Origin: a virus
Taxonomy: Duplodnaviria; Heunggongvirae; Uroviricota; Caudoviricetes
Reading direction: 5' to 3' (one strand)
Length of the DNA stretch: 15,216 nt
Virus record (IMG/VR): IMGVR_UViG_2582581022_000009
This document shows positions 1 to 15,216 of the stretch, one piece after another. The position numbers and the translations under genes are program-made. Position 1 is the first letter of the stretch. Each line of letters starts with the position of its first letter. The notes beneath the pieces are model-generated. The model searched no databases, was not told the origin of the DNA, and saw nothing but the letters and a program-made list of their open reading frames with translations.

Positions 1-2
1 AC

Positions 3-779
3 CTTGCAGCCGGCAAGGCGCCCGTCAGCCACACTCACCCGTGGAGTCAGATAACGGGAGTGCCTGCTGCCTCGCTGACGGCAAAAGGCACCGTACAATT
101 GAGCAGTGCCATCAACAGCACGTCTGAAATACTGGCCGCCACACCGAAAGCGGTCAAGGCTGCATACGATCTGGCAAACGGAAAACAACCGGCAGATGCC
201 ACGCTCACTGCTCTGGCAGGACTTGCCACTGCAGCAGATCGGTTGCCTTATTTTACCGGAGCAGACCGCGCAGAGCTGGCAACCCTTACAGCTATTGGTC
301 GCGCTATTATCGCTAAGGGCAGTATAAAAGATGTCCTCAATTACCTTGGTTTGGGGGAAGGCTCGGCGCTGCCCGTTGGTGTACCTGTTCCGTGGCCCAC
401 TGCCACACCGCCAGCAGGCTGGTTACAGTGCAACGGAGCTACGTTCACCAAAGAACAATATCCTGTTCTGGCCAGAGTCTACCCGACCCTCCGTCTTCCC
501 GATTTGCGCGGTGAGTTTATCCGTGGATGGGACGACGGGCGAAAAGTGGATACAGGGCGCGATCTGCTTTCACGGCAGGATGGTACAAGTTTTTCTCATT
601 ACGCAGGTAATTTTGACATTGGGTCTGGTCATTCAATCAATAACTATGACCAAATCCTTGACAACCAACCTGGATTCTCCCGTTTTTCATTTGCAGGTCC
701 TTCGCGAGGCGATGGGGTTAATTATGTGACCATTCGTCCCCGTAACATTGCGTTTAATTACATCGTAAGGGCGGCATAG
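3..779 (+). CDS. Side tail fibre protein, C-terminal part (5' end outside window); constant region fused to variable cassette Sv1
   Basis: Frame is open from window start (codon phase 3) to TAG at 777-779; the GTG at 60 in the ORF track is not a real start. C-terminus ...RPRNIAFNYIVRAA. Gene context (invertase, tfa, alternative cassettes) is typical of Mu G-segment / e14 P-region fibres. Confidence 0.8.
   Translation, partial: LAAGKAPVSHTHPWSQITGVPAASLTAKGTVQLSSAINSTSEILAATPKAVKAAYDLANGKQPADATLTALAGLATAADRLPYFTGADRAELATLTAIGRAIIAKGSIKDVLNYLGLGEGSALPVGVPVPWPTATPPAGWLQCNGATFTKEQYPVLARVYPTLRLPDLRGEFIRGWDDGRKVDTGRDLLSRQDGTSFSHYAGNFDIGSGHSINNYDQILDNQPGFSRFSFAGPSRGDGVNYVTIRPRNIAFNYIVRAA
334..570 (+). 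repeat. Tail-fibre cassette 5' homology block, copy A, with putative 26-bp invertase crossover site at 334-359
   Basis: Encodes GLGEGSALPVGVPVPWPTATPPAGWLQCNGATFTKEQYPVLARVYPTLRLPDLRGEFIRGWD, repeated at 787 and inverted at 2387. Homology begins exactly at GGTTTGGGGGAA (348-359), preceded by TCCTCAATTACC-TT, resembling gix/hix 12-2-12 sites (AAACC-NN-GGTTT core). Confidence 0.55.
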
Positions 780-1009
780 AAACGTTGGTTTGGGGGAAGG
801 CTCTGCATTGCCTGTTGGTGTACCGGTTCCATGGCCCACCGCCACACCGCCAGCAGGCTGGTTACAGTGCAACGGAGCTACGTTCACCAAAGAACAATAT
901 CCTGTTCTGGCCAGAGTCTACCCGACCCTCCGTCTTCCCGATTTGCGCGGTGAGTTTATCCGTGGATGGGACGGTGGTCGCAAGGTTGATACCGGGCGTG
1001 CGCTACTTT
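773..1009 (+). repeat. Tail-fibre cassette 5' homology block, copy B (direct repeat of A), with putative crossover site at 773-798
   Basis: GGCATAGAAACG-TT-GGTTTGGGGGAA at 773-798, then ~135 bp near-identical to copy A (offset 439 bp); lies immediately after the Sv1 stop codon. Confidence 0.55.
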
Positions 1010-1251
1010 CATTTCAGGAAGGGACTATCGTATCCGGTTTTGATGATAATGATACCGGAGATATCAGTTCGCTCGGCTCTACACAATACGGATTTGGTGA
1101 CGCTTTAACCTCTAATCAACTGGGGGTCTTAAATGGCAAAAAGTGGATATTTGATGCATCCTCTAAAGGTGCACAAAGATATGACTGGTGGGCTTATGTA
1201 TCAGCTCGCCCCCGCAATATCGCATTTAACTATATCGTGAGGGCGGCGTGA
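790..1251 (+). CDS. Silent alternative tail-fibre variable C-terminal cassette (Sv2); no independent start
   Basis: ORF begins at the crossover block (TTG is an ORF-finder artefact), shares the N-terminal 70 aa and C-terminal RPRNIAFNYIVRAA with Sv1 but has a different central segment; in a different frame from the upstream fibre. Confidence 0.6.
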   Translation: MGEGSALPVGVPVPWPTATPPAGWLQCNGATFTKEQYPVLARVYPTLRLPDLRGEFIRGWDGGRKVDTGRALLSFQEGTIVSGFDDNDTGDISSLGSTQYGFGDALTSNQLGVLNGKKWIFDASSKGAQRYDWWAYVSARPRNIAFNYIVRAA

Positions 1252-1257
1252 TACCGT

Positions 1258-1872
1258 TCAGCCGGCAAGCGCCAGTGGCGCTTCCGGCCAGCTGATTTCA
1301 GGTGCCTTGCTGATATCCAGTGCGTTCAGCTCGTCGATATAATCCAGCACGGCGTTCAGTTTTGCCGTTTCTTCTGGTTTCAGACTGCGACCAGCACGCA
1401 GTTTGAGGTTGATAAGATCGACGGACGCCATCGCCTGTTTCACCCGTTGCTGGCGTTGCTGTCTGGCAACCTCCAGTTCTGCGGCTCGCTGCCGTTCAGT
1501 ATCGGTTACCCACGCCTCACCGTTCCAGGTATCCCATGGCGTGGCTGGCTGTTTTGTGGTGGTGTCCGCCGGGTAATCACCCGGTTGGGTAATCAGAACG
1601 GGGTTACCGTTCTCCGTGCTGTATACCGTCTCGCCGCGGTGATCAGGCACATGCTCCCACCCGTTCAGCGTGGCAGTCCGGCAAACCACGTAACCCGAAA
1701 TTGCTTCCGGCGGTGCATCGGCGCACGAATGTGCCGGAGTACCCACCCCAAGGGCGAGATACTCCACAGAGGATGAGGTGTATTCCCGGGTTTCCTCGTC
1801 ATAGTGATATACAGTGATATCGCCCGCTACAGTGGCGATACCGTTTTCATCCAGAACTGCAGTGTTACTCAT
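1258..1872 (-). CDS. tfa: Tail fibre assembly protein (Tfa / Mu U family)
   Basis: 204 aa starting MSNTAVLDENG...; ATG overlaps the TAA of the upstream Sv3 cassette (TAATG coupling); position between fibre cassette and convergent cassette matches G-segment architecture. Confidence 0.8.
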   Translation of the reverse strand: MSNTAVLDENGIATVAGDITVYHYDEETREYTSSSVEYLALGVGTPAHSCADAPPEAISGYVVCRTATLNGWEHVPDHRGETVYSTENGNPVLITQPGDYPADTTTKQPATPWDTWNGEAWVTDTERQRAAELEVARQQRQQRVKQAMASVDLINLKLRAGRSLKPEETAKLNAVLDYIDELNALDISKAPEISWPEAPLALAG

Positions 1873-2402
1873 TAAACTGCCCTCACAATGTAATTAAGTG
1901 CAATGCTACGGGGTCTGACAGTGATACCCTTCGCATACCCGCTTCTGATAGAGGTCAGAATAGTAGCCTGCATACCATTGTCTGACATTGCCACGACAGG
2001 ATCGCTGAATGTTGTCCCGTCCGGCATTTTAAAGCTGCCCTCACGAAGGTCTGTAATGGAATCTTCATTGTTGAATCCCATGCCGACTATCCCCGAGGTT
2101 CCCGTAGTGTCCTGGTTATAATAATCCAGCATTGCTGTTCTTAACAGCGTTGCCCCTTGTGCGGACAGCAACTTACGTCCTGTATCAACTTTGCGCCCGT
2201 CGTCCCATCCACGGATAAACTCACCGCGTAAATCGGGAAGACGGAGGGTCGGGTAGACTCTGGCCAGAACAGGATATTGTTCTTTTGTAAAGGCGCGCCC
2301 GTCGCACTTTAACCAGCCTGCTGGCGGTGTGGCGGTGGGCCACGGAACAGGCACACCAACGGGTAGCGCCGAGCCTTCTCCTAAACCACGTTTATCTCTC
2401 AA
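1872..2402 (-). CDS. Alternative tail-fibre variable C-terminal cassette (Sv3), inverted orientation, currently not fused to the constant region
   Basis: Shares the conserved junction block and C-terminal RPRSIALNYIVRAV with Sv1/Sv2, with a unique middle; the only cassette followed in cis by tfa. Confidence 0.65.
   Translation of the reverse strand: MRDKRGLGEGSALPVGVPVPWPTATPPAGWLKCDGRAFTKEQYPVLARVYPTLRLPDLRGEFIRGWDDGRKVDTGRKLLSAQGATLLRTAMLDYYNQDTTGTSGIVGMGFNNEDSITDLREGSFKMPDGTTFSDPVVAMSDNGMQATILTSIRSGYAKGITVRPRSIALNYIVRAV
2165..2401 (-). repeat. Tail-fibre cassette 5' homology block, copy C (inverted), with putative crossover site at 2376-2401
   Basis: Minus strand reads TGAGAGATAAAC-GT-GGTTTAGGAGAA then the same GLGEGSALPVGVPVPWPTATPPAGWL... 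coding block; inverted relative to A and B and adjacent to the invertase gene. Confidence 0.55.
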
Positions 2403-2454
2403 ATCCTCCCCACATTATCTCAGTACTTTAACCACTCAAAAGGGAGTATTTTTA

Positions 2455-3027
2455 ATGCTGATTGGCTACATACGTGTGTCAACAAATGACCAAAACACAG
2501 ATTTGCAACGCAATGCATTAATGTGCGCAGGATGTGAACAGATTTTTGAGGACAAAATGAGCGGAACCAAGTCGGAACGACCAGGCCTGAAACGCGCTTT
2601 AAAGTGCCTTAAAAGAGGGGATACATTGGTGGTCTGGAAGCTGGATCGGTTGGGTAGAAGAATGAAACACCTCATTGCTCTCACAGAAGAGCTACGCGCA
2701 AAAGGTGTCAATTTTCGCAGTCTGACGGATTCAATCGATACCAGCACTCCGATGGGAAGGTTCTTTTTTCATATGATGGGTGCACTGGCAGAAATGGAGC
2801 GTGAACTGATAGTTGAGCGCACGCTGGCTGGACTGGCTGCTGCGCGAGCACAAGGAAGAGTTGGAGGACGTCGCCCGAAACTGACGAAGGAGCAGCATGA
2901 GCAGATCGCAAGATTGCTCCAGAAAGGGTATGACAGAAAGCGGCTGGCAATTATCTATGATATTGGACTGTCAACGATCTACCGCTATCACCCTGTTGGG
3001 ACTGTCATAACGCAACCTGAAATGTAA
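2455..3027 (+). CDS. pin: Site-specific DNA invertase, serine recombinase (Pin/Gin/Cin/Hin family)
   Basis: 190 aa MLIGYIRVSTNDQNTDLQRNALMCAGCEQIFEDKMSG...GRRPKLTKEQHEQIARLL: resolvase/invertase catalytic N-domain with active-site Ser in VST and C-terminal HTH. True ATG at 2455 with AGGGAG RBS (ORF track start 2329 is upstream in-frame read-through). C-terminal ~25 aa differ from my recollection of K-12 PinE. Confidence 0.9.
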   Translation: MLIGYIRVSTNDQNTDLQRNALMCAGCEQIFEDKMSGTKSERPGLKRALKCLKRGDTLVVWKLDRLGRRMKHLIALTEELRAKGVNFRSLTDSIDTSTPMGRFFFHMMGALAEMERELIVERTLAGLAAARAQGRVGGRRPKLTKEQHEQIARLLQKGYDRKRLAIIYDIGLSTIYRYHPVGTVITQPEM

Positions 3028-3182
3028 TTCTTTTTCAAATAATGAAACGCCGCGTGGATGCCATTTATCGCACAAGATAGAGTGCATTTATCGCGCGGCG
3101 CATCACCTTTTGTTGATCCACTCAAATCGGCGGTGGCAATCATGAGTTGCTCACGAACAAACTGTAAATACTGGTTATTCAT
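2988..3182 (-). CDS. Small hypothetical protein (64 aa), translationally coupled to rusA; possibly a remnant at a deletion junction
   Basis: ATG overlaps the rusA stop as ATGA (3179-3182); 3' end overlaps the pin 3' end by 40 nt (convergent). No recognisable domain. Confidence 0.35.
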   Translation of the reverse strand: MNNQYLQFVREQLMIATADLSGSTKGDAPRDKCTLSCAINGIHAAFHYLKKNYISGCVMTVPTG

Positions 3183-3538
3183 GCATACTCCAGTTCTGTG
3201 ATTTTTATCCCCAACCGCCCACCAGGAACAAGCTGACCGCGCACAATATTAATTTCATCAAACTGCTCGTCGTCTATGAGCAGCCCCGCATGCGTCAGTA
3301 CATCCAGTGGTGCCTTCAGGATATTGTCCAGGTCACGACGGCGCTTATCCGGTGGCTCTGCAATAATTTCTATTGCCGGCCTTCCGGACAGGTTTAATTT
3401 CAGTTGCTGCTGGCGAACAATAAGCGCCACATCACGGCGATAACGCTCACCGACTTTTGATACAAAATATGTGCTGCCACGGCGTCGCCAGTAAGTGTTC
3501 ACCGTCGGCGGGTAAGGTAAAACCAAATCTATGAGCAT
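3179..3538 (-). CDS. rusA: Holliday junction resolvase RusA
   Basis: 119 aa with ...PPDKRRRDLDNILKAPLDVLTHAGLLIDDEQ..., matching the RusA catalytic Asp cluster (DRRRRDLDN...DD.Q in E. coli RusA); GAGGTG RBS; nin-region position. Confidence 0.8.
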   Translation of the reverse strand: MLIDLVLPYPPTVNTYWRRRGSTYFVSKVGERYRRDVALIVRQQQLKLNLSGRPAIEIIAEPPDKRRRDLDNILKAPLDVLTHAGLLIDDEQFDEINIVRGQLVPGGRLGIKITELEYA

Positions 3539-3550
3539 CAGTCACCTCTT

Positions 3551-4600
3551 TTACCCAAGCACGCCAGTTGCAAAGGCGTGATCAAGAAAACGAAAAATTA
3601 AATCAACCTGAGAACCATGCTTTTCTTCGAACGCCAGCGGATCCGCATGAAGCTCGTTGTGATGCTCCCGACACAGCGGTAGCGTGAAAATATCGTGAGA
3701 TTTTGTCCCCATTCCGCCCTGACCATGACCAATCAGGTGATGGGGATCGTCGGCTGGCTTACCACAACACGCACACGGCTGTGTCTTCACCCAGCGTGTG
3801 TATTTCTCGTTAACCCAGCGGCGACGTTTAGGTCGTTTCATGAAAGATTCCGGAGACTCAGGATCAACGGCAATGCTGACCACCGTCTTTTCCTGTGGTG
3901 GGTTCTGTTGCTGGTGGGCGTGAGGCAGCGGCGCAAGATTTTTTGTGCGCTGTTTCAGTATGCTGGTGGAGGTCTGCTCTCCCGGTACGATGTCGCTTTC
4001 ACGGTACATTGAGCGGATTTTTTCCGCACGCAACCCCAGCGAACGACGTAATACCGCTTCCGGTAGCGCGTCCGCCACCTGATTGCGGACCGCCCACCAG
4101 GATAATTCAGCCAGCGATAATTCCCGTTCCTGCGAGCCATTCATTGCATGGCGTATGACGTCAATCATCCATGCAGACAGGTTTTGGTGAGCAAGTTGCC
4201 CGAGTGATTCGGAGGTCTGGTCGCGCAGCTGGTTGTCGCAGTGCCAGCACAACACCATTGCGCCGGTACCATAACGGTGAATGACGGTTTCACTGTGGTG
4301 ATAATCACCGTGTGGCCACTGGCAGGATTTAACATGGCGCAGTAACCAATCAGACAATGCGCCAGCGCCACCAGCAGCACGAATCACTCGTTCGTCGCTG
4401 AAAAATGGCAGTAATGATTTATCCTCCGCCAGCGGCTGGCGAACGGCAGGAACGACCCCGGACGGCAGATTACGCATGCTTTTCGGTTCCGGCTCCACCA
4501 GTACCCGGGTATTGTGGAATACCGGCATGGATTCACGGCCCGGCTTAACGATCACCAGCCCGAGTTCCGGTACCAGAACAGGTCGAAGTAATACCCGCAC
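3551..4600 (-). CDS. DUF968-family (YdfU-like) lambdoid nin-region protein with C-terminal HNH-like Cys/His motif
   Basis: 349 aa; C-terminus RPKRRRWVNEKYTRWVKTQPCACCGKPADDPHHLIGHGQGGMGTKSHDIFTLPLCREHHNELH. GTG start with GGAGG RBS; upstream stop adjacent to start (operon coupling). Confidence 0.7.
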   Translation of the reverse strand: MRVLLRPVLVPELGLVIVKPGRESMPVFHNTRVLVEPEPKSMRNLPSGVVPAVRQPLAEDKSLLPFFSDERVIRAAGGAGALSDWLLRHVKSCQWPHGDYHHSETVIHRYGTGAMVLCWHCDNQLRDQTSESLGQLAHQNLSAWMIDVIRHAMNGSQERELSLAELSWWAVRNQVADALPEAVLRRSLGLRAEKIRSMYRESDIVPGEQTSTSILKQRTKNLAPLPHAHQQQNPPQEKTVVSIAVDPESPESFMKRPKRRRWVNEKYTRWVKTQPCACCGKPADDPHHLIGHGQGGMGTKSHDIFTLPLCREHHNELHADPLAFEEKHGSQVDLIFRFLDHAFATGVLG

Positions 4601-4601
4601 G

Positions 4602-4874
4602 TTACCTCCAGATGCGTTGCTGGAATGTGCGGGACGGACGCGGTGGGCGTTCGGAATAAGGGAGTCTGACGTAGATTATCCAGTGACGATAATCGAGGGT
4701 GAGGGCTTTCCTAAACTCATATCCACGTCTGCGGTAGTTATGAATCAGCCATTCGGCCTGTTCTTCAGTACAGGGATCGTGCTGATACCAGTCATATTTG
4801 AATGCGTGAGAACGCCACCCGTGCCTGCTGGCAAAGGCAGAATCAGAATTGCGAAATTTGAAATTATGCGCCAT
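4602..4874 (-). CDS. Hypothetical phage protein (about 90 aa)
   Basis: ORF MAHNFKFRNSDSAFASRHGWRSHAFKYDWYQHDPCTEEQAEWLIHNYRRRGYEFRK...; GGAG RBS 7 nt upstream of ATG at 4874; stop abuts the start of the DUF968 gene. Confidence 0.5.
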   Translation of the reverse strand: MAHNFKFRNSDSAFASRHGWRSHAFKYDWYQHDPCTEEQAEWLIHNYRRRGYEFRKALTLDYRHWIIYVRLPYSERPPRPSRTFQQRIWR

Positions 4875-4933
4875 TGTCATCTCCAATGGCGCTGCAGGTT
4901 GCCAGTTGTTCAGGCTGGCTCACGTATTATAAC

Positions 4934-5107
4934 TTATTCCCGAACTACCTTGAAACCGAGTCTTTCCAAGTATTCAATGAATGCCTCAACAGATAACACT
5001 ACATGATCATCAGGAATTAACGCTGTGTAGGTAATACCCCCATTCTCAACGCGCACAGCATAGAGGCCATCTTCACTAAAAATTTCACGTAATTCTTCGA
5101 TTTTCAT
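4934..5107 (-). CDS. Small hypothetical protein (57 aa; alternative start at 5155 gives 73 aa), in a Rem-like position
   Basis: MKIEELREIFSEDGLYAVRVENGGITYTALIPDDHVVLSVEAFIEYLERLGFKVVRE; GGAAGGA RBS before ATG 5107; AGGGAG before ATG 5155 as well. Confidence 0.45.
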   Translation of the reverse strand: MKIEELREIFSEDGLYAVRVENGGITYTALIPDDHVVLSVEAFIEYLERLGFKVVRE

Positions 5108-5226
5108 CAACAGAATCCTTCCAGATAAATAGCACTCCCCCTGTTCGGGGTCCATCCCTCTTCTCCCTGCGCGCTACTTAAGTATTTTTGATTCTATTCT
5201 GGCACCGTCCAAAACTTCAAACACGT

Positions 5227-5260
5227 TGAAAATAAAAACAAAAAACCCGCCGAAGCGGGT
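5227..5260 (-). terminator. Rho-independent terminator (minus strand) downstream of the HTH-peptidase gene
   Basis: Hairpin ACCCGC-cgaa-GCGGGT (5245-5260) followed on the minus strand by TTTTTTGTTTTTATTTT. Confidence 0.6.
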
Positions 5261-5264
5261 ATAC

Positions 5265-6368
5265 TCAAACAATCTGGAAAATATTTCTTGGATTTGTAAT
5301 AGGTCTGTTGATGGAGAACAACTCACGAATTAAATCTTGGCTCAAGCCAGTTTTCATAAGAATTCTTAGCCAGGTTGCATCATCCAGCATTTCAATCGCC
5401 TCGGCCAGCATGCCGGGTTCTTCAGGGCGCAAAAGTTCATCACCAGGTTCAACTCTCGTATACCCTCTGGAATTAAGATGCATATAGCCAGTTCTTGCCT
5501 GTTCCTGGGTCAATAAGCCTAATGCGCTGGCTCGATAAATACACATTTTAAGGCTGATTTTCCATCTAAGTTTAAATTCAACCAGAGCATTCCAGTCGAA
5601 TTGCTTACCTCGTATTCGTGGAAATTCTTTAATGAAAGATAACCTGGGAACTAATAAGGCGCTCGAAAAGTGATCGGCTTGTGATTCCGTAAGTTTATCA
5701 CCTGTCGTTATGCCCTCATGCATTACTAAATGCCCTAATTCATGACCTAAATCAGAGCGAAATCTACATATGCTTTTTTTAACATTGTTCCTGATGATAA
5801 CAGGCCTGTTATTGTGAACAGTAAAAGCATCAACACGATCATCGACTCCCGTAACATGCGCAACGATTACCCCTAAACTCTCCGCCAATTTAACCATTGA
5901 TGATATAGGGCCAAGACCTAAATTCCAGGCACGGCGACAATCTTCTGCCACTCGCTCAATATCATTCGGAGTAAGTAATTCAGCCCCTGGGTGCTCCGGT
6001 ATGTTAACGTCAGGAAATTCGATTTCACCTTCAACAGCAGAAATTATAATATTAAGAATCTCAGCCCTGGCCAATACACTATTAGTCAGCGTTTGAGTCC
6101 TGGACTTCTTACTCCGAAAATGGCAGACATCACTTTCCAGAGCGTATTTTCGTTCAGTAAAAAGAAAACTGGACTTAATCATAAGCGCTGAAGATATTAA
6201 CTCAAGACATTGCTCCGATGGCCTGCACCCCTTCTCCAGTTTGCTAACGAATTGCTTTGTCTTGCCAATTTTTTCGGCTAACTCTTCACAAGAAAGCCCA
6301 ACAGCCATTCTCGCTAGTTTGAGCTTATCACCCCGATACTCAGTGAAGTTATTCACCTGATGTTCCAT
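5265..6368 (-). CDS. Fusion protein: N-terminal XRE-family HTH + ImmA/IrrE-type (M78, COG2856-like) zinc metallopeptidase domain
   Basis: HTH: LKLARMAVGLSCEELAEKIGKTKQFVSKLEKGCRPSEQCLELISSAL; peptidase motif HEXXH as SDLGHELGHLVMHEG (HELGH, as in IrrE/ImmA). Overlaps the upstream gene by ~20 nt; sampled 60-bp stretches are ~30-35% GC versus >50% in flanks. Confidence 0.75.
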   Translation of the reverse strand: MEHQVNNFTEYRGDKLKLARMAVGLSCEELAEKIGKTKQFVSKLEKGCRPSEQCLELISSALMIKSSFLFTERKYALESDVCHFRSKKSRTQTLTNSVLARAEILNIIISAVEGEIEFPDVNIPEHPGAELLTPNDIERVAEDCRRAWNLGLGPISSMVKLAESLGVIVAHVTGVDDRVDAFTVHNNRPVIIRNNVKKSICRFRSDLGHELGHLVMHEGITTGDKLTESQADHFSSALLVPRLSFIKEFPRIRGKQFDWNALVEFKLRWKISLKMCIYRASALGLLTQEQARTGYMHLNSRGYTRVEPGDELLRPEEPGMLAEAIEMLDDATWLRILMKTGLSQDLIRELFSINRPITNPRNIFQIV

Positions 6369-6999
6369 CACTGCTCACATCCAAATCTTTATCCTTCGTA
6401 CGCCGACGAAGAGGCACCTTATTAATCTCCGCTTCGTCAGGGAGTGTGTTATAATCAAGAGGCATAAGCGGCATCGATGCTGTAGATTGATGAGAAACTA
6501 TACTAATCTGAGCACCATAAGTATTAAATCCAACAAGAGCTACCTCCCAACGAGGCAGTGTGGACTCTAATTCACCATCGCCCTCTTCGGATAAAAAAGG
6601 CTCAGCTATGACTCGCCATGTAATATCTTGCTCAGCCTCAACATCACCAAACAATGAGAGCTGCTCATACTCTACTTTATTTCGACGCAGACGATGTTTC
6701 TTTTTGGGGTTATTAATGCAATCTTTGGTAAATTGTAGCGGAACTTTATTTAAAGCAACTACATAGTCCAACCCCTTGGAAATCATCTCAAGGCCAGGAA
6801 TTGCATCTTCATTTTGAATAAGATGATTTCTGACCCAATCATAAGCCCTTACACCTTCAGACCAGTTGCTGTCTAATGCGTGCTTATGATAGTACAGCTG
6901 CTCAAGTACGTTAGCGATCTCCGCCAACAAGTGGCGAACATAGTTTTCAGCAAGATAAGGTTGAAATTCCCAACAAGGAGCTAACTGATTTTCATTCAT
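6349..6999 (-). CDS. Hypothetical protein (216 aa), first gene of the AT-rich cassette; no recognisable domain
   Basis: MNENQLAPCWEFQPYLAENYVRHLL...; basic patch KKKHRLRRNK mid-protein, acidic C-terminus; co-oriented and overlapping with the HTH-peptidase gene. Confidence 0.6.
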   Translation of the reverse strand: MNENQLAPCWEFQPYLAENYVRHLLAEIANVLEQLYYHKHALDSNWSEGVRAYDWVRNHLIQNEDAIPGLEMISKGLDYVVALNKVPLQFTKDCINNPKKKHRLRRNKVEYEQLSLFGDVEAEQDITWRVIAEPFLSEEGDGELESTLPRWEVALVGFNTYGAQISIVSHQSTASMPLMPLDYNTLPDEAEINKVPLRRRTKDKDLDVSSDGTSGE

Positions 7000-7034
7000 T
7001 TCAAGTTTCGCTTTTTTTAGAATTCGTAAACCAC

Positions 7035-7063
7035 ATATTTTCGCATTTTTCTATTTTTGTCAA
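7035..7063 (-). promoter_or_regulatory. Putative sigma70 promoter for the two-gene cassette
   Basis: Minus strand: TTGACA (7063-7058), 17-bp spacer, AAATAT, about 35 nt upstream of the 6999 start codon. Confidence 0.35.
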
Positions 7064-7071
7064 CCAGACTA

Positions 7072-14223: not shown

Positions 14224-14352
14224 ATGGATTTCGACACAATCATGGAAAAGGCTTACGAAGAATACTTCGATGGTCTTGCCGAAGGCGAAGAAGCTCTCAG
14301 CTTCAGTGAATTTAAACAGGCGCTTTCCAGTTCGGGAAAATCTAACGGCTGA
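14224..14352 (+). CDS. Small hypothetical protein (42 aa), not in the supplied ORF track
   Basis: ATG 1 nt after the preceding stop; MDFDTIMEKAYEEYFDGLAEGEEALSFSEFKQALSSSGKSNG; RBS-like GGTGAG upstream. Confidence 0.45.
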   Translation: MDFDTIMEKAYEEYFDGLAEGEEALSFSEFKQALSSSGKSNG

Positions 14353-14381
14353 TAAGCGAAACAGCACCGCGAGGAATCAGT

Positions 14382-14600
14382 ATGCAGAAACGAGAACCCG
14401 TCATCATCGCGCCAGACTATACCGATGATGAACTTTATGAGTGGATGCGCCAGAAAATTAATGCAGTGCAGGATCTGAAATGGGCCAATGAAGCCAGGAC
14501 TAAGCAGGCTGAAAATCTGTCCGCTCTGGAGCAGGATATCACCAGGCTGGAAAAAGCAGCGGCATTAAGCATTGCCAGAATGGTTACATACCCACGTTAA
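14382..14600 (+). CDS. Hypothetical early protein (72 aa)
   Basis: GAGGAA RBS 7 nt upstream; MQKREPVIIAPDYTDDELYEWMRQKINAVQDLKWANEARTKQAENLSALEQDITRLEKAAALSIARMVTYPR. Confidence 0.55.
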   Translation: MQKREPVIIAPDYTDDELYEWMRQKINAVQDLKWANEARTKQAENLSALEQDITRLEKAAALSIARMVTYPR

Positions 14601-14622
14601 TAGCTAACCAACGAGGCTAATA

Positions 14623-15024
14623 ATGGAATTTAAAGATTTACCAATGCCATTCCAGGAAATGGCAGCGAATGTGATTCGCTCTCAACTGGCGACTCTTGAC
14701 CTGAGTACTGTAGAAAAGGAAACCATCGATACTATATCCGGTAACGTGCGTCGTGCCTTTATAGGTCTGTATGAAGAGAAGCGCCTATTCGGCGGACAGA
14801 ATTCGCCTGAAAACAAGAATCAAGCAAATGATGAGAAGCTGAAACACATTATCGCCTTACTTTTGGAAGACGCAAAACGTCTACAGCAACTGGAACCAAA
14901 TGCAGGCACAGAGGCCCGCATTTGGATTGCCATGAAATCACTCAAATGTGAAAGCAGTGATTATTTCAAAACAACAATTAAAACTACTCAACTTTCGGGA
15001 GAGCTACTGAAGAAATTGCCATAA
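14623..15024 (+). CDS. Hypothetical early protein (133 aa)
   Basis: ACGAGG RBS upstream of ATG 14623; no recognisable domain. Confidence 0.55.
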   Translation: MEFKDLPMPFQEMAANVIRSQLATLDLSTVEKETIDTISGNVRRAFIGLYEEKRLFGGQNSPENKNQANDEKLKHIIALLLEDAKRLQQLEPNAGTEARIWIAMKSLKCESSDYFKTTIKTTQLSGELLKKLP

Positions 15025-15216
15025 GAGCATGGTCTTTCTCTTGTTCTGCAAGATGAGCATTAATACCTGGTATGGTTTTTTCAAATTTATCTATCTGTTG
15101 AATAACAACTTCGCGGTATACGTTTGTTTTTGTACCACCAAGCGCAGCCGTTAATGCAGAAAGCATATTTAGTATCATATCAGTGCGATATGAAAGAATC
15201 CTGATAGCTTCATCTT

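What the first reader, a model, noticed from the sequence alone, without database searches (positions are those of the whole stretch)
1..3027. Three-site tail-fibre inversion switch with two tandem direct cassettes plus one inverted cassette
The conserved junction block occurs three times: 348-570 (+, fused to the constant region), 787-1009 (+, silent, right after the Sv1 stop) and 2387-2165 (-, next to pin), each followed by a different variable middle and a shared C-terminal ...NYIVRAA end. Classical Gin/Cin/Pin systems have two inverted sites; three sites with one invertase resemble multiple-inversion systems (Min of p15B, shufflons). Inversion A x C would express Sc-Sv3 with tfa in cis; a subsequent inversion could place Sv2 at the expression site, giving three potential host ranges.
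Basis: partly seen in the sequence, partly recalled or inferred. Interest (0 to 1): 0.7.

Follow-up and report, generated by a model that had tools for sequence, protein, structure and literature searches.

The report
Three-site Pin tail-fibre inversion switch
This is a real phage tail-fibre switch in which one Gin/Pin-type invertase shuffles three alternative fibre tips through four DNA arrangements; all four occur about equally often in over 1,000 E. coli genomes, but it belongs to a known kind and this copy has a damaged site.

Summary
A ~230-bp block occurs three times: 340-571 (+), 786-1010 (+) and 2164-2395 (-). Each begins with a 26-bp Gin-family crossover site: A 334-359, B 773-798, C 2376-2400. 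An intact invertase gene (2455-3027, 77% identical to Gin) lies next to site C.

The three-site interpretation is supported. I built the three other arrangements predicted by inversion at the central TT. Each occurs in 250-275 of 5,426 complete E. coli genomes, against 268 for the window's arrangement. All match at ~99.6% identity as single pieces, at the same chromosomal site in ST131. Near-identical isolates differ in arrangement. The junctions swap within 7 bp.

The locus is prophage Phi2 of ST131. Forde et al. 2014 saw it invert in PacBio reads but listed only two sites. The host element is a Mu/BcepMu-like transposable prophage that ends at 3105.

One caveat applies to this window. Its site C has lost one base of the 2-bp core, which should block recombination at C. 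This copy may therefore be frozen expressing Sv1.

I rate it a new member of a known kind (Min-like multiple inversion), of moderate interest.

The parts
1..346 (+). Sc: constant part of the tail-fibre gene. The ORF is open from the window edge and the gene starts upstream of the window.
   Evidence: Open frame 3..779. Contains a Phage_fiber_2 repeat, PF03406. In JJ1886 the full ORF is intact at 416 aa, starting MGNLNETEKW.
334..359 (+). Crossover site A: TCCTCAATTACC TT GGTTTGGGGGAA, centre TT at 346-347. It lies at the constant/variable junction.
   Evidence: The left half is identical to the Phi2_5prime site of EC958 in Forde 2014, Table 3.
347..785 (+). Segment X: the Sv1 cassette (collar block 348-571, variable part, stop codon at 777-779). 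It is expressed in the window's arrangement.
   Evidence: It moves as a unit in arrangements Y'X' and YX'.
773..798 (+). Crossover site B: GGCATAGAAACG TT GGTTTGGGGGAA, centre TT at 785-786. It is in direct orientation to A, and its left half includes the Sv1 stop codon.
   Evidence: Its use is shown by arrangements XY' (b joined to the Sv3 block) and YX'.
786..2388 (.). Segment Y: invertible unit carrying Sv2 (+), tfa (-) and Sv3 (-).
   Evidence: Found in both orientations, at both positions, in real genomes.
786..1251 (+). Sv2 cassette, silent here. Collar block, variable part and C-terminal ...NYIVRAA.
   Evidence: ORF 790-1251, Collar domain. It fuses in frame to Sc in arrangement YX'.
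1258..1872 (-). tfa: the only tail-fibre assembly (chaperone) gene of the switch, 204 aa.
   Evidence: PF02413 Caudo_TAP, E = 5.6e-27. Its start overlaps the Sv3 stop (TAATG). Annotated as tail fiber assembly protein WP_000072165.1 in ST131.
1872..2388 (-). Sv3 cassette, silent here. Collar block 2164-2387, variable part and C-terminal ...NYIVRAV.
   Evidence: ORF 1872-2402, Collar domain. It fuses in frame to Sc, with tfa in cis, in arrangement Y'X'. That is the state of EC958, phage 503046 and others.
2376..2400 (-). Crossover site C next to pin. On the + strand it reads TTCTCCTAAACC A CGTTTATCTCTC. It is only 25 bp because one base of the AA/TT core is missing.
   Evidence: JJ1886, EC958, e14 and Mu all have a 2-bp core here. 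The same deletion occurs only in strains M9682-C1 and B36 among 5,426 genomes.
2455..3027 (+). pin: serine DNA invertase of the Gin/Cin/Pin/Hin (Din) family, 190 aa, with the catalytic Ser9 motif RVSTNDQ.
   Evidence: Resolvase PF00239 (8e-51) plus HTH_7 PF02796. 77% identical to Gin and 76% to PinE.
3028..3105 (+). Right end of the transposable (Mu/BcepMu-like) prophage, ending ...GCGCATCA. Beyond it lies unrelated lambdoid prophage DNA.
   Evidence: Homology to JJ1886, M9682-C1 and B36 stops at the same base, and the flank differs in each genome. The prophage has a DDE transposase, a MuB-like ATPase, Gam and Mor.

Best explanation
Window 1-3105 is the right end of a Mu/BcepMu-like transposable prophage, the one called Phi2 in E. 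coli ST131. It carries a multiple-inversion host-range switch. One Gin-family serine invertase (Pin, 2455-3027) recombines three 26-bp sites that lie at the start of three alternative C-terminal tail-fibre cassettes. Sites A and B are direct and site C is inverted. Pairwise inversions (A x C, B x C and, once B has flipped, A x B) cycle the locus through four arrangements: X-Y (the window), X-Y', Y'-X' and Y-X'. These place Sv1, Sv1, Sv3 and Sv2 respectively in frame behind the constant fibre shaft. The single chaperone gene tfa points the same way as the fibre gene only in X-Y' and Y'-X'. Shown by sequence comparison: the three sites, the in-frame fusions, an intact invertase, all four arrangements in nature at near-equal frequency, and crossover confined to the site core. 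Shown by others: a single EC958 culture contained both orientations of the A-C segment (PacBio, Forde 2014). Inferred: Pin is the catalyst, Fis and an enhancer inside the pin gene are needed, and the three tips give different receptor specificities. For this particular copy, the 1-bp deletion in the core of site C should prevent ligation of recombinants at C. Only the direct pair A/B would then remain usable, so this copy is probably locked expressing Sc-Sv1. My confidence in that last point is about 0.5.
For: Repeats and sites.
Invertase: Resolvase plus HTH_7 domains, and 77% and 76% identity to Gin and PinE.
Arrangement census in 5,426 complete E. coli genomes: 268 (XY), 275 (XY'), 270 (Y'X') and 250 (YX'). 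Top hits cover 100% of the query in one piece at about 99.6% identity with identical bit scores (5653).
Near-identical isolates differ in arrangement. U14A is XY and U13A is XY'. They share coordinates 1002575-1005675 and their genome lengths differ by 1 bp. Swedish isolates 4/4 (XY) and 4/1-1 (Y'X') also differ.
Junctions: in JJ1886, U13A, 4/1-1, AR_0055 and EC958 the three left halves (a, b, c) are joined to the three cassette blocks in exactly the predicted permutations. The switch point lies inside TTGGTTT.
All three fusions are in frame.
Forde 2014 (PMC4134206) reports a PacBio alternative contig and 26-bp sites TCCTCAATTACCTT|GGTTTAGGAGAA and GAGAGATAAACGTT|GGTTTGGGGGAA for Phi2.
Three-site loci in several states also occur in metagenome and viral contigs.
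Core requirement: a single base change in the hix core prevents ligation in the inverted orientation, and cleavage is a 2-bp stagger (PMC4817059).
Against: No experiment was done on this sequence, and arrangements in assemblies are snapshots.
The recombinational enhancer could not be demonstrated. Fis-motif scanning was inconclusive.
The locked inference is weakened by two other prophages with the same core deletion, M9682-C1 and B36, which are in opposite orientations. Either the deletion recurs after inversion or it is tolerated.
The first ~30 nt of the blocks are mosaic in some metagenome loci, and a 24-nt patch differs between the window and JJ1886. Homologous exchange between blocks therefore also happens.
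Sv1 and Sv2 have no cognate tfa in cis. It is unknown whether all states give working fibres.
Confidence: 0.88

Rival explanations
1. The arrangements arise by RecA-dependent homologous recombination between the ~230-bp repeats, not by site-specific recombination. The invertase would be irrelevant or dead.
For: The repeats are long enough (225-244 nt at 86-90% identity). Patchy mosaicism of the blocks shows that some homologous exchange or gene conversion does occur.
Against: In all five ST131-type loci inspected, the exchange point falls within the 7-bp TTGGTTT at the extreme edge of the repeat. Synthetic arrangements built with exchange at TT score exactly as well as the parental one (5653 bits). 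The four states are near-equally frequent and differ between near-identical isolates, which implies a much higher rate than homologous recombination on 88%-identical 230-bp repeats. The invertase is intact and 77% identical to Gin. EC958 reads showed mixed orientations within one culture.
Confidence: 0.04
2. It is a classical two-site switch (A x C only). Copy B is a silent duplication that never recombines.
For: Forde 2014 described only two sites and one 2067-bp invertible segment for this prophage. The left half of B matches the family consensus poorly (GGCATAGAAACG).
Against: Arrangements XY' (275 genomes) and YX' (250 genomes) cannot be made without B. Real loci show b joined to the Sv3 block and c joined to the Sv2 block (U13A, AR_0055). 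An ST131 study also reported a 'translocation' in this prophage.
Confidence: 0.02
3. In this window the switch is a dead relic. The site C core deletion has frozen the locus, so what is seen is a fixed Sc-Sv1 fibre gene with two silent cassettes.
For: Site C is 25 bp, with one base of the 2-bp core missing. Serine invertases cut with a 2-bp stagger, and even a single core substitution blocks ligation of the inverted product (PMC4817059). The allele is rare: 2 of about 870 related loci, and 0 hits in metagenome, viral and GTDB scans. That is what one expects of a defective variant.
Against: The same allele is seen with Sv3 next to pin (M9682-C1) and with another cassette next to pin (B36). A single-base sequencing error in the window cannot be excluded. 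An invertase might process a 25-bp site at low efficiency.
Confidence: 0.5
4. The alternative arrangements in databases are assembly artefacts caused by repeats.
For: Short-read metagenome contigs often break exactly at the sites.
Against: The census used complete, mostly long-read genomes, and 230-bp repeats are easily spanned. Four arrangements at 250-275 genomes each with exact reciprocal junctions are not what random misjoins would give. EC958 authors excluded adapter and hairpin artefacts.
Confidence: 0.01

Closest known systems
Prophage Phi2 of E. coli ST131 strain EC958 (Forde et al. 2014, PLoS One, PMC4134206)
   Same: It is the same element. Identity is 99.6% over 1-3100, with the same site sequences, invertase (WP_000904922.1), tfa and three cassettes. 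Inversion of the A-C segment was seen directly in PacBio reads.
   Different: The paper lists two crossover sites and one 2067-bp invertible segment. The internal site B and the four arrangements are not described. In ST131 the prophage sits between aroA and ycaL. Here it is inserted in a lambdoid prophage, and site C has a core deletion.
Min multiple-inversion system of plasmid p15B (Iida, Sandmeier, Arber et al. 1990-1992; from my own knowledge and as cited)
   Same: One Din-family serine invertase acts on more than two crossover sites inside a tail-fibre gene region, shuffling alternative C-terminal cassettes.
   Different: From memory, Min has six sites and hundreds of possible arrangements on a P1-like plasmid prophage. 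This system has three sites and four arrangements in a transposable Mu/BcepMu-like prophage, and only one tfa gene. I did not compare Min sequences directly.
Gin/G segment of phage Mu, Cin/C of P1 and Pin/P of e14
   Same: The invertase is 76-77% identical. Sites are 26 bp with a 12+2+12 layout at the constant/variable junction. The invertase gene lies immediately beside the outer site. The switch sits at the right end of a transposable phage, as in Mu.
   Different: Those systems have two sites, two arrangements and a tfa (U/U') for each fibre. Here there is a third, direct site, a tandem silent cassette and a single tfa. The core is TT/AA, not GA as in Mu.
R64 shufflon (Rci)
   Same: Formal resemblance only: several sites and multiple inversions select one of several C-terminal ends of an adhesin.
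   Different: The shufflon uses a tyrosine recombinase, different sites and a pilus gene (own knowledge). The recombinase here is serine-type.

Membership tests
Gin/Cin/Pin/Hin (Din) invertase switch | Small serine recombinase with an N-terminal resolvase catalytic domain, a C-terminal HTH, and close similarity to Gin/Pin | tested here: met
   PF00239 8e-51 and PF02796 1e-12. 77% identity to Gin (PDB 4M6F/3UJ3 and Mu) and 76% to PinE. Ser9 in RVSTNDQ is present.
Gin/Cin/Pin/Hin (Din) invertase switch | 26-bp imperfectly symmetric crossover sites with an identical 2-bp core in all partners | tested here: inconclusive
   Sites A and B are 26 bp with a TT core. Site C in the window has a 1-bp core (25 bp). 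In JJ1886, EC958 and more than 590 other genomes site C has the full TT core. The feature is met for the family and not met for this copy's site C.
Gin/Cin/Pin/Hin (Din) invertase switch | Sites placed at the constant/variable junction of a tail-fibre gene, so that inversion swaps in-frame C-termini | tested here: met
   All three predicted fusions are in frame and complete. Collar domains are present in all cassettes.
Gin/Cin/Pin/Hin (Din) invertase switch | Inversion actually occurs, so both or all arrangements are found | tested here: met
   Four arrangements occur in 250-275 complete genomes each, with exact junctions. PacBio evidence comes from EC958. This was not tested for the window's own source strain.
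Gin/Cin/Pin/Hin (Din) invertase switch | Fis-dependent recombinational enhancer in cis, within the 5' part of the invertase gene about 100 bp from a site | tested here: inconclusive
   The 5' part of pin aligns well with gin and pinE (81% mean column identity). One Fis-like 15-mer at +94 is conserved in window pin and Mu gin, and the aligned e14 15-mer also fits the motif. No convincing pair 48 bp apart was found with a degenerate motif. Fis dependence is not testable here.
Min-type multiple DNA inversion system | More than two crossover sites served by one invertase, with several site pairs used | tested here: met
   There are three sites. Products of A x C, B x C and A x B(flipped) are all observed.
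Min-type multiple DNA inversion system | Sequence relatedness to Min/mix of p15B specifically | not tested
   No p15B sequence was fetched. The relation is by family (Din) only.
Shufflon (R64-type) | Rci tyrosine recombinase and sfx sites acting on pilV | tested here: not met
   The recombinase is serine-type and the target is a tail-fibre gene.
Mu/BcepMu-like transposable prophage (host element) | DDE transposase, MuB-like ATPase, Gam and Mor, with different insertion sites sharing identical ends | tested here: met
   The JJ1886 prophage gene content fits. The same right end ...GCGCATCA abuts aroA (ST131), gspL (M9682-C1), yfaL (B36) and a lambdoid Q gene (the window). The left end and the target duplication for the window were not seen.

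The most novel reading that the evidence does not exclude
The direct pair A/B may make the cassettes mobile units. Pin-mediated excision between direct sites and re-integration of the circle would add or remove whole fibre-tip cassettes, somewhat like an integron. Forms without X but carrying the same Sv2 and Sv3 cassettes exist: L041 matches the synthetic A x B deletion product at 99.7% in one piece. Other phages carry different cassettes behind a b-like site. Two further points go with this. With one tfa, the four arrangements could be four functional states: Sv1 or Sv3 with co-oriented tfa, and Sv1 or Sv2 without. The recurrent 1-bp core deletion at site C, seen on at least two haplotype backgrounds, could be a scar of abortive cleavage that naturally locks a switch.
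Probability: 0.2. Interest if true: 0.6.

Novelty: new member of a known kind. Interest (0 to 1): 0.4.

Why it matters
Tail-fibre inversion switches set phage host range. They are also a classic model for serine-recombinase control. This locus sits in a prophage of ST131, a pandemic multidrug-resistant E. coli clone. There it causes routine assembly and annotation problems: PGAP marks the intact fibre gene as pseudogene pieces, and isolate comparisons have reported a 'translocation'. Recognising three sites and four arrangements explains those observations. It also gives a compact natural multi-state switch (3 sites, 1 enzyme, about 2 kb) that could be useful for synthetic biology and for engineering phage or tailocin host range. 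The census shows that public genomes can stand in for a population experiment. The core-deleted site C offers a natural test of what locks such a switch.

Tried and rejected
1. Homologous recombination as the source of the arrangements. Rejected because exchange maps to 7 bp at the site core.
2. Site B as an inert duplication. Rejected by arrangements XY' and YX'.
3. Search for the Fis/enhancer. Alignment with gin and pinE plus a degenerate Fis-motif scan was inconclusive.
4. Sigma-70 promoter scan for an independent tfa promoter. Nothing was found in 1-3100, and the scan does not cover phage late promoters.
5. Search for the core-deleted site C in metagenome, viral and GTDB collections. There were 0 hits, so the 'locked' idea could not be tested on more examples.
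6. Search for the window's full context in complete E. coli genomes. No genome has the pin locus joined to this lambdoid region, which is explained by transposition.
7. Johnson's review of serine invertases (PMC4384473) is not held. I used PMC4817059 instead.
8. First attempts to translate pin used a start coordinate that was off by one.
9. I did not run the large protein-homology, structure-prediction or fold searches. The domains were already clear from Pfam and PDB sequence hits (T4 gp37 collar 2XGF; Mu S 5YVQ).
Full report
**1. Observation**

The repeat finder reports a 244-nt direct repeat (343-586 / 782-1025, 90%). It also reports two inverted repeats: 340-571 x 2164-2395 (232 nt, 88%) and 786-1010 x 2164-2388 (225 nt, 86%). 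A three-way alignment has 86% mean column identity.

The ORF map and Pfam give the following layout.
- A tail-fibre ORF is open from the window edge to 779. It contains a Phage_fiber_2 repeat and then a Collar domain.
- A second, promoterless Collar cassette lies at 790-1251 (+).
- A tail-fibre assembly gene (Caudo_TAP) lies at 1258-1872 (-).
- A third Collar cassette lies at 1872-2402 (-).
- A serine recombinase (Resolvase plus HTH_7) lies at 2455-3027 (+).

Sv1 and Sv2 end ...NYIVRAA, and Sv3 ends ...NYIVRAV.

**2. Crossover sites**

Each block begins with a 12+2+12 site of the Gin family.
- Site A, 334-359: TCCTCAATTACC TT GGTTTGGGGGAA.
- Site B, 773-798: GGCATAGAAACG TT GGTTTGGGGGAA. Its left half contains the Sv1 stop codon.
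- Site C, 2376-2400, read on the minus strand: GAGAGATAAACG T GGTTTAGGAGAA.

Alignment with the e14 pix site and Mu gixR, and with JJ1886, shows that site C in the window lacks one base of the 2-bp core. The relatives have TT.

**3. The invertase**

The 190-aa protein is 77% identical to Mu Gin and 76% identical to e14 PinE. It keeps the catalytic serine motif.

**4. Does the three-site system actually switch?**

I defined four pieces: Sc = 1-346, X = 347-785, Y = 786-2388 and P = 2389-3100. I then built the three other arrangements reachable by inversion at the central TT and searched each against 5,426 complete E. coli genomes.

| Arrangement | Genomes with at least 80% coverage in one place |
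|---|---|
| X-Y (the window's state) | 268 |
| X-Y' | 275 |
| Y'-X' | 270 |
| Y-X' | 250 |

- In each search the top hits cover 100% of the query in a single piece at about 99.6% identity, and most have the same bit score (5653).
- A four-state cycle with reversible steps predicts about 25% per state, which is what is seen.
- Near-identical isolates differ in arrangement. U14A is X-Y and U13A is X-Y'. They share coordinates 1002575-1005675 and their genome lengths differ by 1 bp.
- Swedish isolates 4/4 and 4/1-1 also differ.

I fetched one example of each arrangement and read the junctions. The three left halves (a, b, c) stay in place. The three cassette blocks are permuted exactly as predicted:

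| Arrangement | Junctions |
|---|---|
| X-Y | aα, bβ, cγ |
| X-Y' | aα, bγ, cβ |
| Y'-X' | aγ, bβ, cα |
| Y-X' | aβ, bγ, cα |

The first polymorphic base of the block lies 6 nt into the right half-site. The exchange point is therefore confined to TTGGTTT. That is the signature of site-specific recombination, not homologous recombination. Arrangements X-Y' and Y-X' cannot form without site B.

All three fusions (Sc-Sv1, Sc-Sv2, Sc-Sv3) are in frame and complete, and Sv3 is followed by tfa.

**5. What was already known**

The locus is prophage Phi2 of ST131. Forde et al. 2014 (PMC4134206) found a separate PacBio contig with this region inverted. They listed two 26-bp sites, identical to a+γ and c+α here, flanking a 2067-bp invertible segment. 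They did not list a third site. EC958's reference sequence is in state Y'-X'.

A preprint on ST131 wound isolates reported an unexplained 'translocation' affecting fibre genes in a 'Burkho_phiE255'-like prophage. Two successive inversions in a three-site system would look like that.

Multi-site Din-family systems are known from Min of p15B (cited; the details are from my own knowledge).

**6. The host element**

The JJ1886 prophage encodes a DDE transposase, a MuB-like ATPase, Gam and Mor, together with myovirus tail genes. Its right end...GCGCATCA, corresponds to window 3105.

That same end abuts different host DNA in each genome:
- the aroA side of the aroA-ycaL interval in ST131;
- gspL in M9682-C1;
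- yfaL in B36;
- a lambdoid prophage in the window.

Comparison with strain ML35 places the window's insertion 77 bp inside the antiterminator Q gene. This explains why no complete genome shares the window's full context.

**7. Spread of the architecture**

An exact-match scan with the wild-type c half-site found 34 metagenome loci, 14 viral loci and 1 GTDB locus.
- Where the whole region is on one contig, most loci have three sites. Some have the same cassettes in various states (L037, L051, L054, L055). Others have different cassettes behind a b-like site, CGCATAAAAACG (L013, L014, L016, L024, L025, L028).
- Two-site forms also exist (phage 503046, M9682-C1, B36, L048, L050).
- L041 matches the synthetic Sc+Y+P product, the result expected from A x B deletion, at 99.7% in one piece. 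L031 is its inverted form.

**8. This copy**

Over 1258-3105 the window is 100% identical to JJ1886 apart from the missing core base. Serine invertases make 2-bp staggered cuts, and a single core substitution in one hix site already prevents ligation of the inverted product (PMC4817059). A 1-bp core should therefore block recombination at C. That leaves only the direct pair A/B, which wild-type invertases disfavour.

The allele is rare. Among complete genomes only M9682-C1 and B36 have it, and it has no hits elsewhere. It sits on different SNP backgrounds, and those two prophages are in opposite orientations. It therefore appears to recur. It could be a scar of abortive cleavage, but that is speculation. 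A sequencing error in the window cannot be excluded.

**9. Open points**

- The enhancer could not be shown.
- There is only one tfa. It is co-oriented with the fibre gene only in Y'-X' and X-Y', so it is unclear whether Sv1 in state X-Y and Sv2 get a chaperone. No sigma-70-like promoter was found for tfa.
- Receptor specificities are unknown. The Collar block resembles the collar domain of T4 gp37 (2XGF), and the shaft repeat resembles Mu S (5YVQ).

**10. Verdict**

The thing is a Min-like, minimal multiple-inversion switch of the Gin family. Its inversion was already published as a two-site event, so it is a new member of a known kind and of moderate interest. The window's own copy probably carries a disabling lesion in site C.

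Noticed in passing
window 2388 (site C core, 2376-2400): One base of the 2-bp crossover core is missing. The same deletion occurs in only two of 5,426 complete genomes (M9682-C1 and B36), on different SNP backgrounds and in opposite switch orientations. It has no hits in metagenome, viral or GTDB scans. It may be a recurrent scar of abortive recombination that locks the switch.
   Followed up: partly
window 3028-3105 and 3105-15216: The switch lies at the extreme right end (...GCGCATCA, 3105) of a Mu/BcepMu-like transposable prophage. The rest of the window is a lambdoid (Qin-like) prophage with rusA, DUF968, hokD, replication genes and ydfA-C. Comparison with strain ML35 places the insertion 77 bp inside the antiterminator Q gene. 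No complete E. coli genome has this junction.
   Followed up: partly
window 426-449 (block A): A 24-nt patch of block A is B-type in the window but C-type in JJ1886, with 10 clustered differences. In some metagenome loci (L041, L031, L013, L016) the first ~30 nt of the blocks are reassorted relative to the variable parts. Both point to gene conversion between the three blocks.
   Followed up: partly
L041 (metagenome OBRO01000687.1) and L031: Two-site forms that lack the Sv1 cassette but carry the same Sv2, tfa and Sv3. L041 aligns at 99.7% in one piece to the synthetic product of deletion between direct sites A and B. L031 is the inverted form. Whole cassettes are therefore gained or lost at the sites.
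   Followed up: partly
window 1258-1872 (-): There is only one tail-fibre assembly gene for three fibre tips. It is co-oriented with the fibre gene in only two of the four arrangements. No sigma-70-like promoter was found for it. The two-site relatives also have a single tfa.
   Followed up: partly
L001 13514-14779 (JJ1886), also L004-L007: RefSeq/PGAP annotates the tail-fibre gene of this prophage as pseudogene fragments ('missing N- and C-terminus'). The 416-aa ORF from MGNLNETEKW to the Sv1 stop is in fact intact. The silent cassettes are annotated as separate 'phage tail proteins'.
   Followed up: yes
window 1-184; L001 13760-14016; L008 11543-12099: The fibre shaft contains tandem repeats (HTHPWSQITGVPAASLTAKGTVQLSS...) whose copy number varies between prophages. 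The fibre is 416 aa in ST131 and 530 aa in M9682-C1.
   Followed up: no
window 1240-1270: After the Sv2 stop the sequence GGCGTGATACCG TT CAGCC resembles the left half of site B plus the TT core, but it has no right half. It may be a relic half-site from an earlier cassette junction.
   Followed up: no
L046 (CAXORL010000041.1, Moraxella osloensis assembly): A 1,268-bp contig in a Moraxella osloensis genome assembly is 99.9% identical to the E. coli prophage's Sv1-site C-pin junction. This is most likely contamination of that assembly.
   Followed up: no
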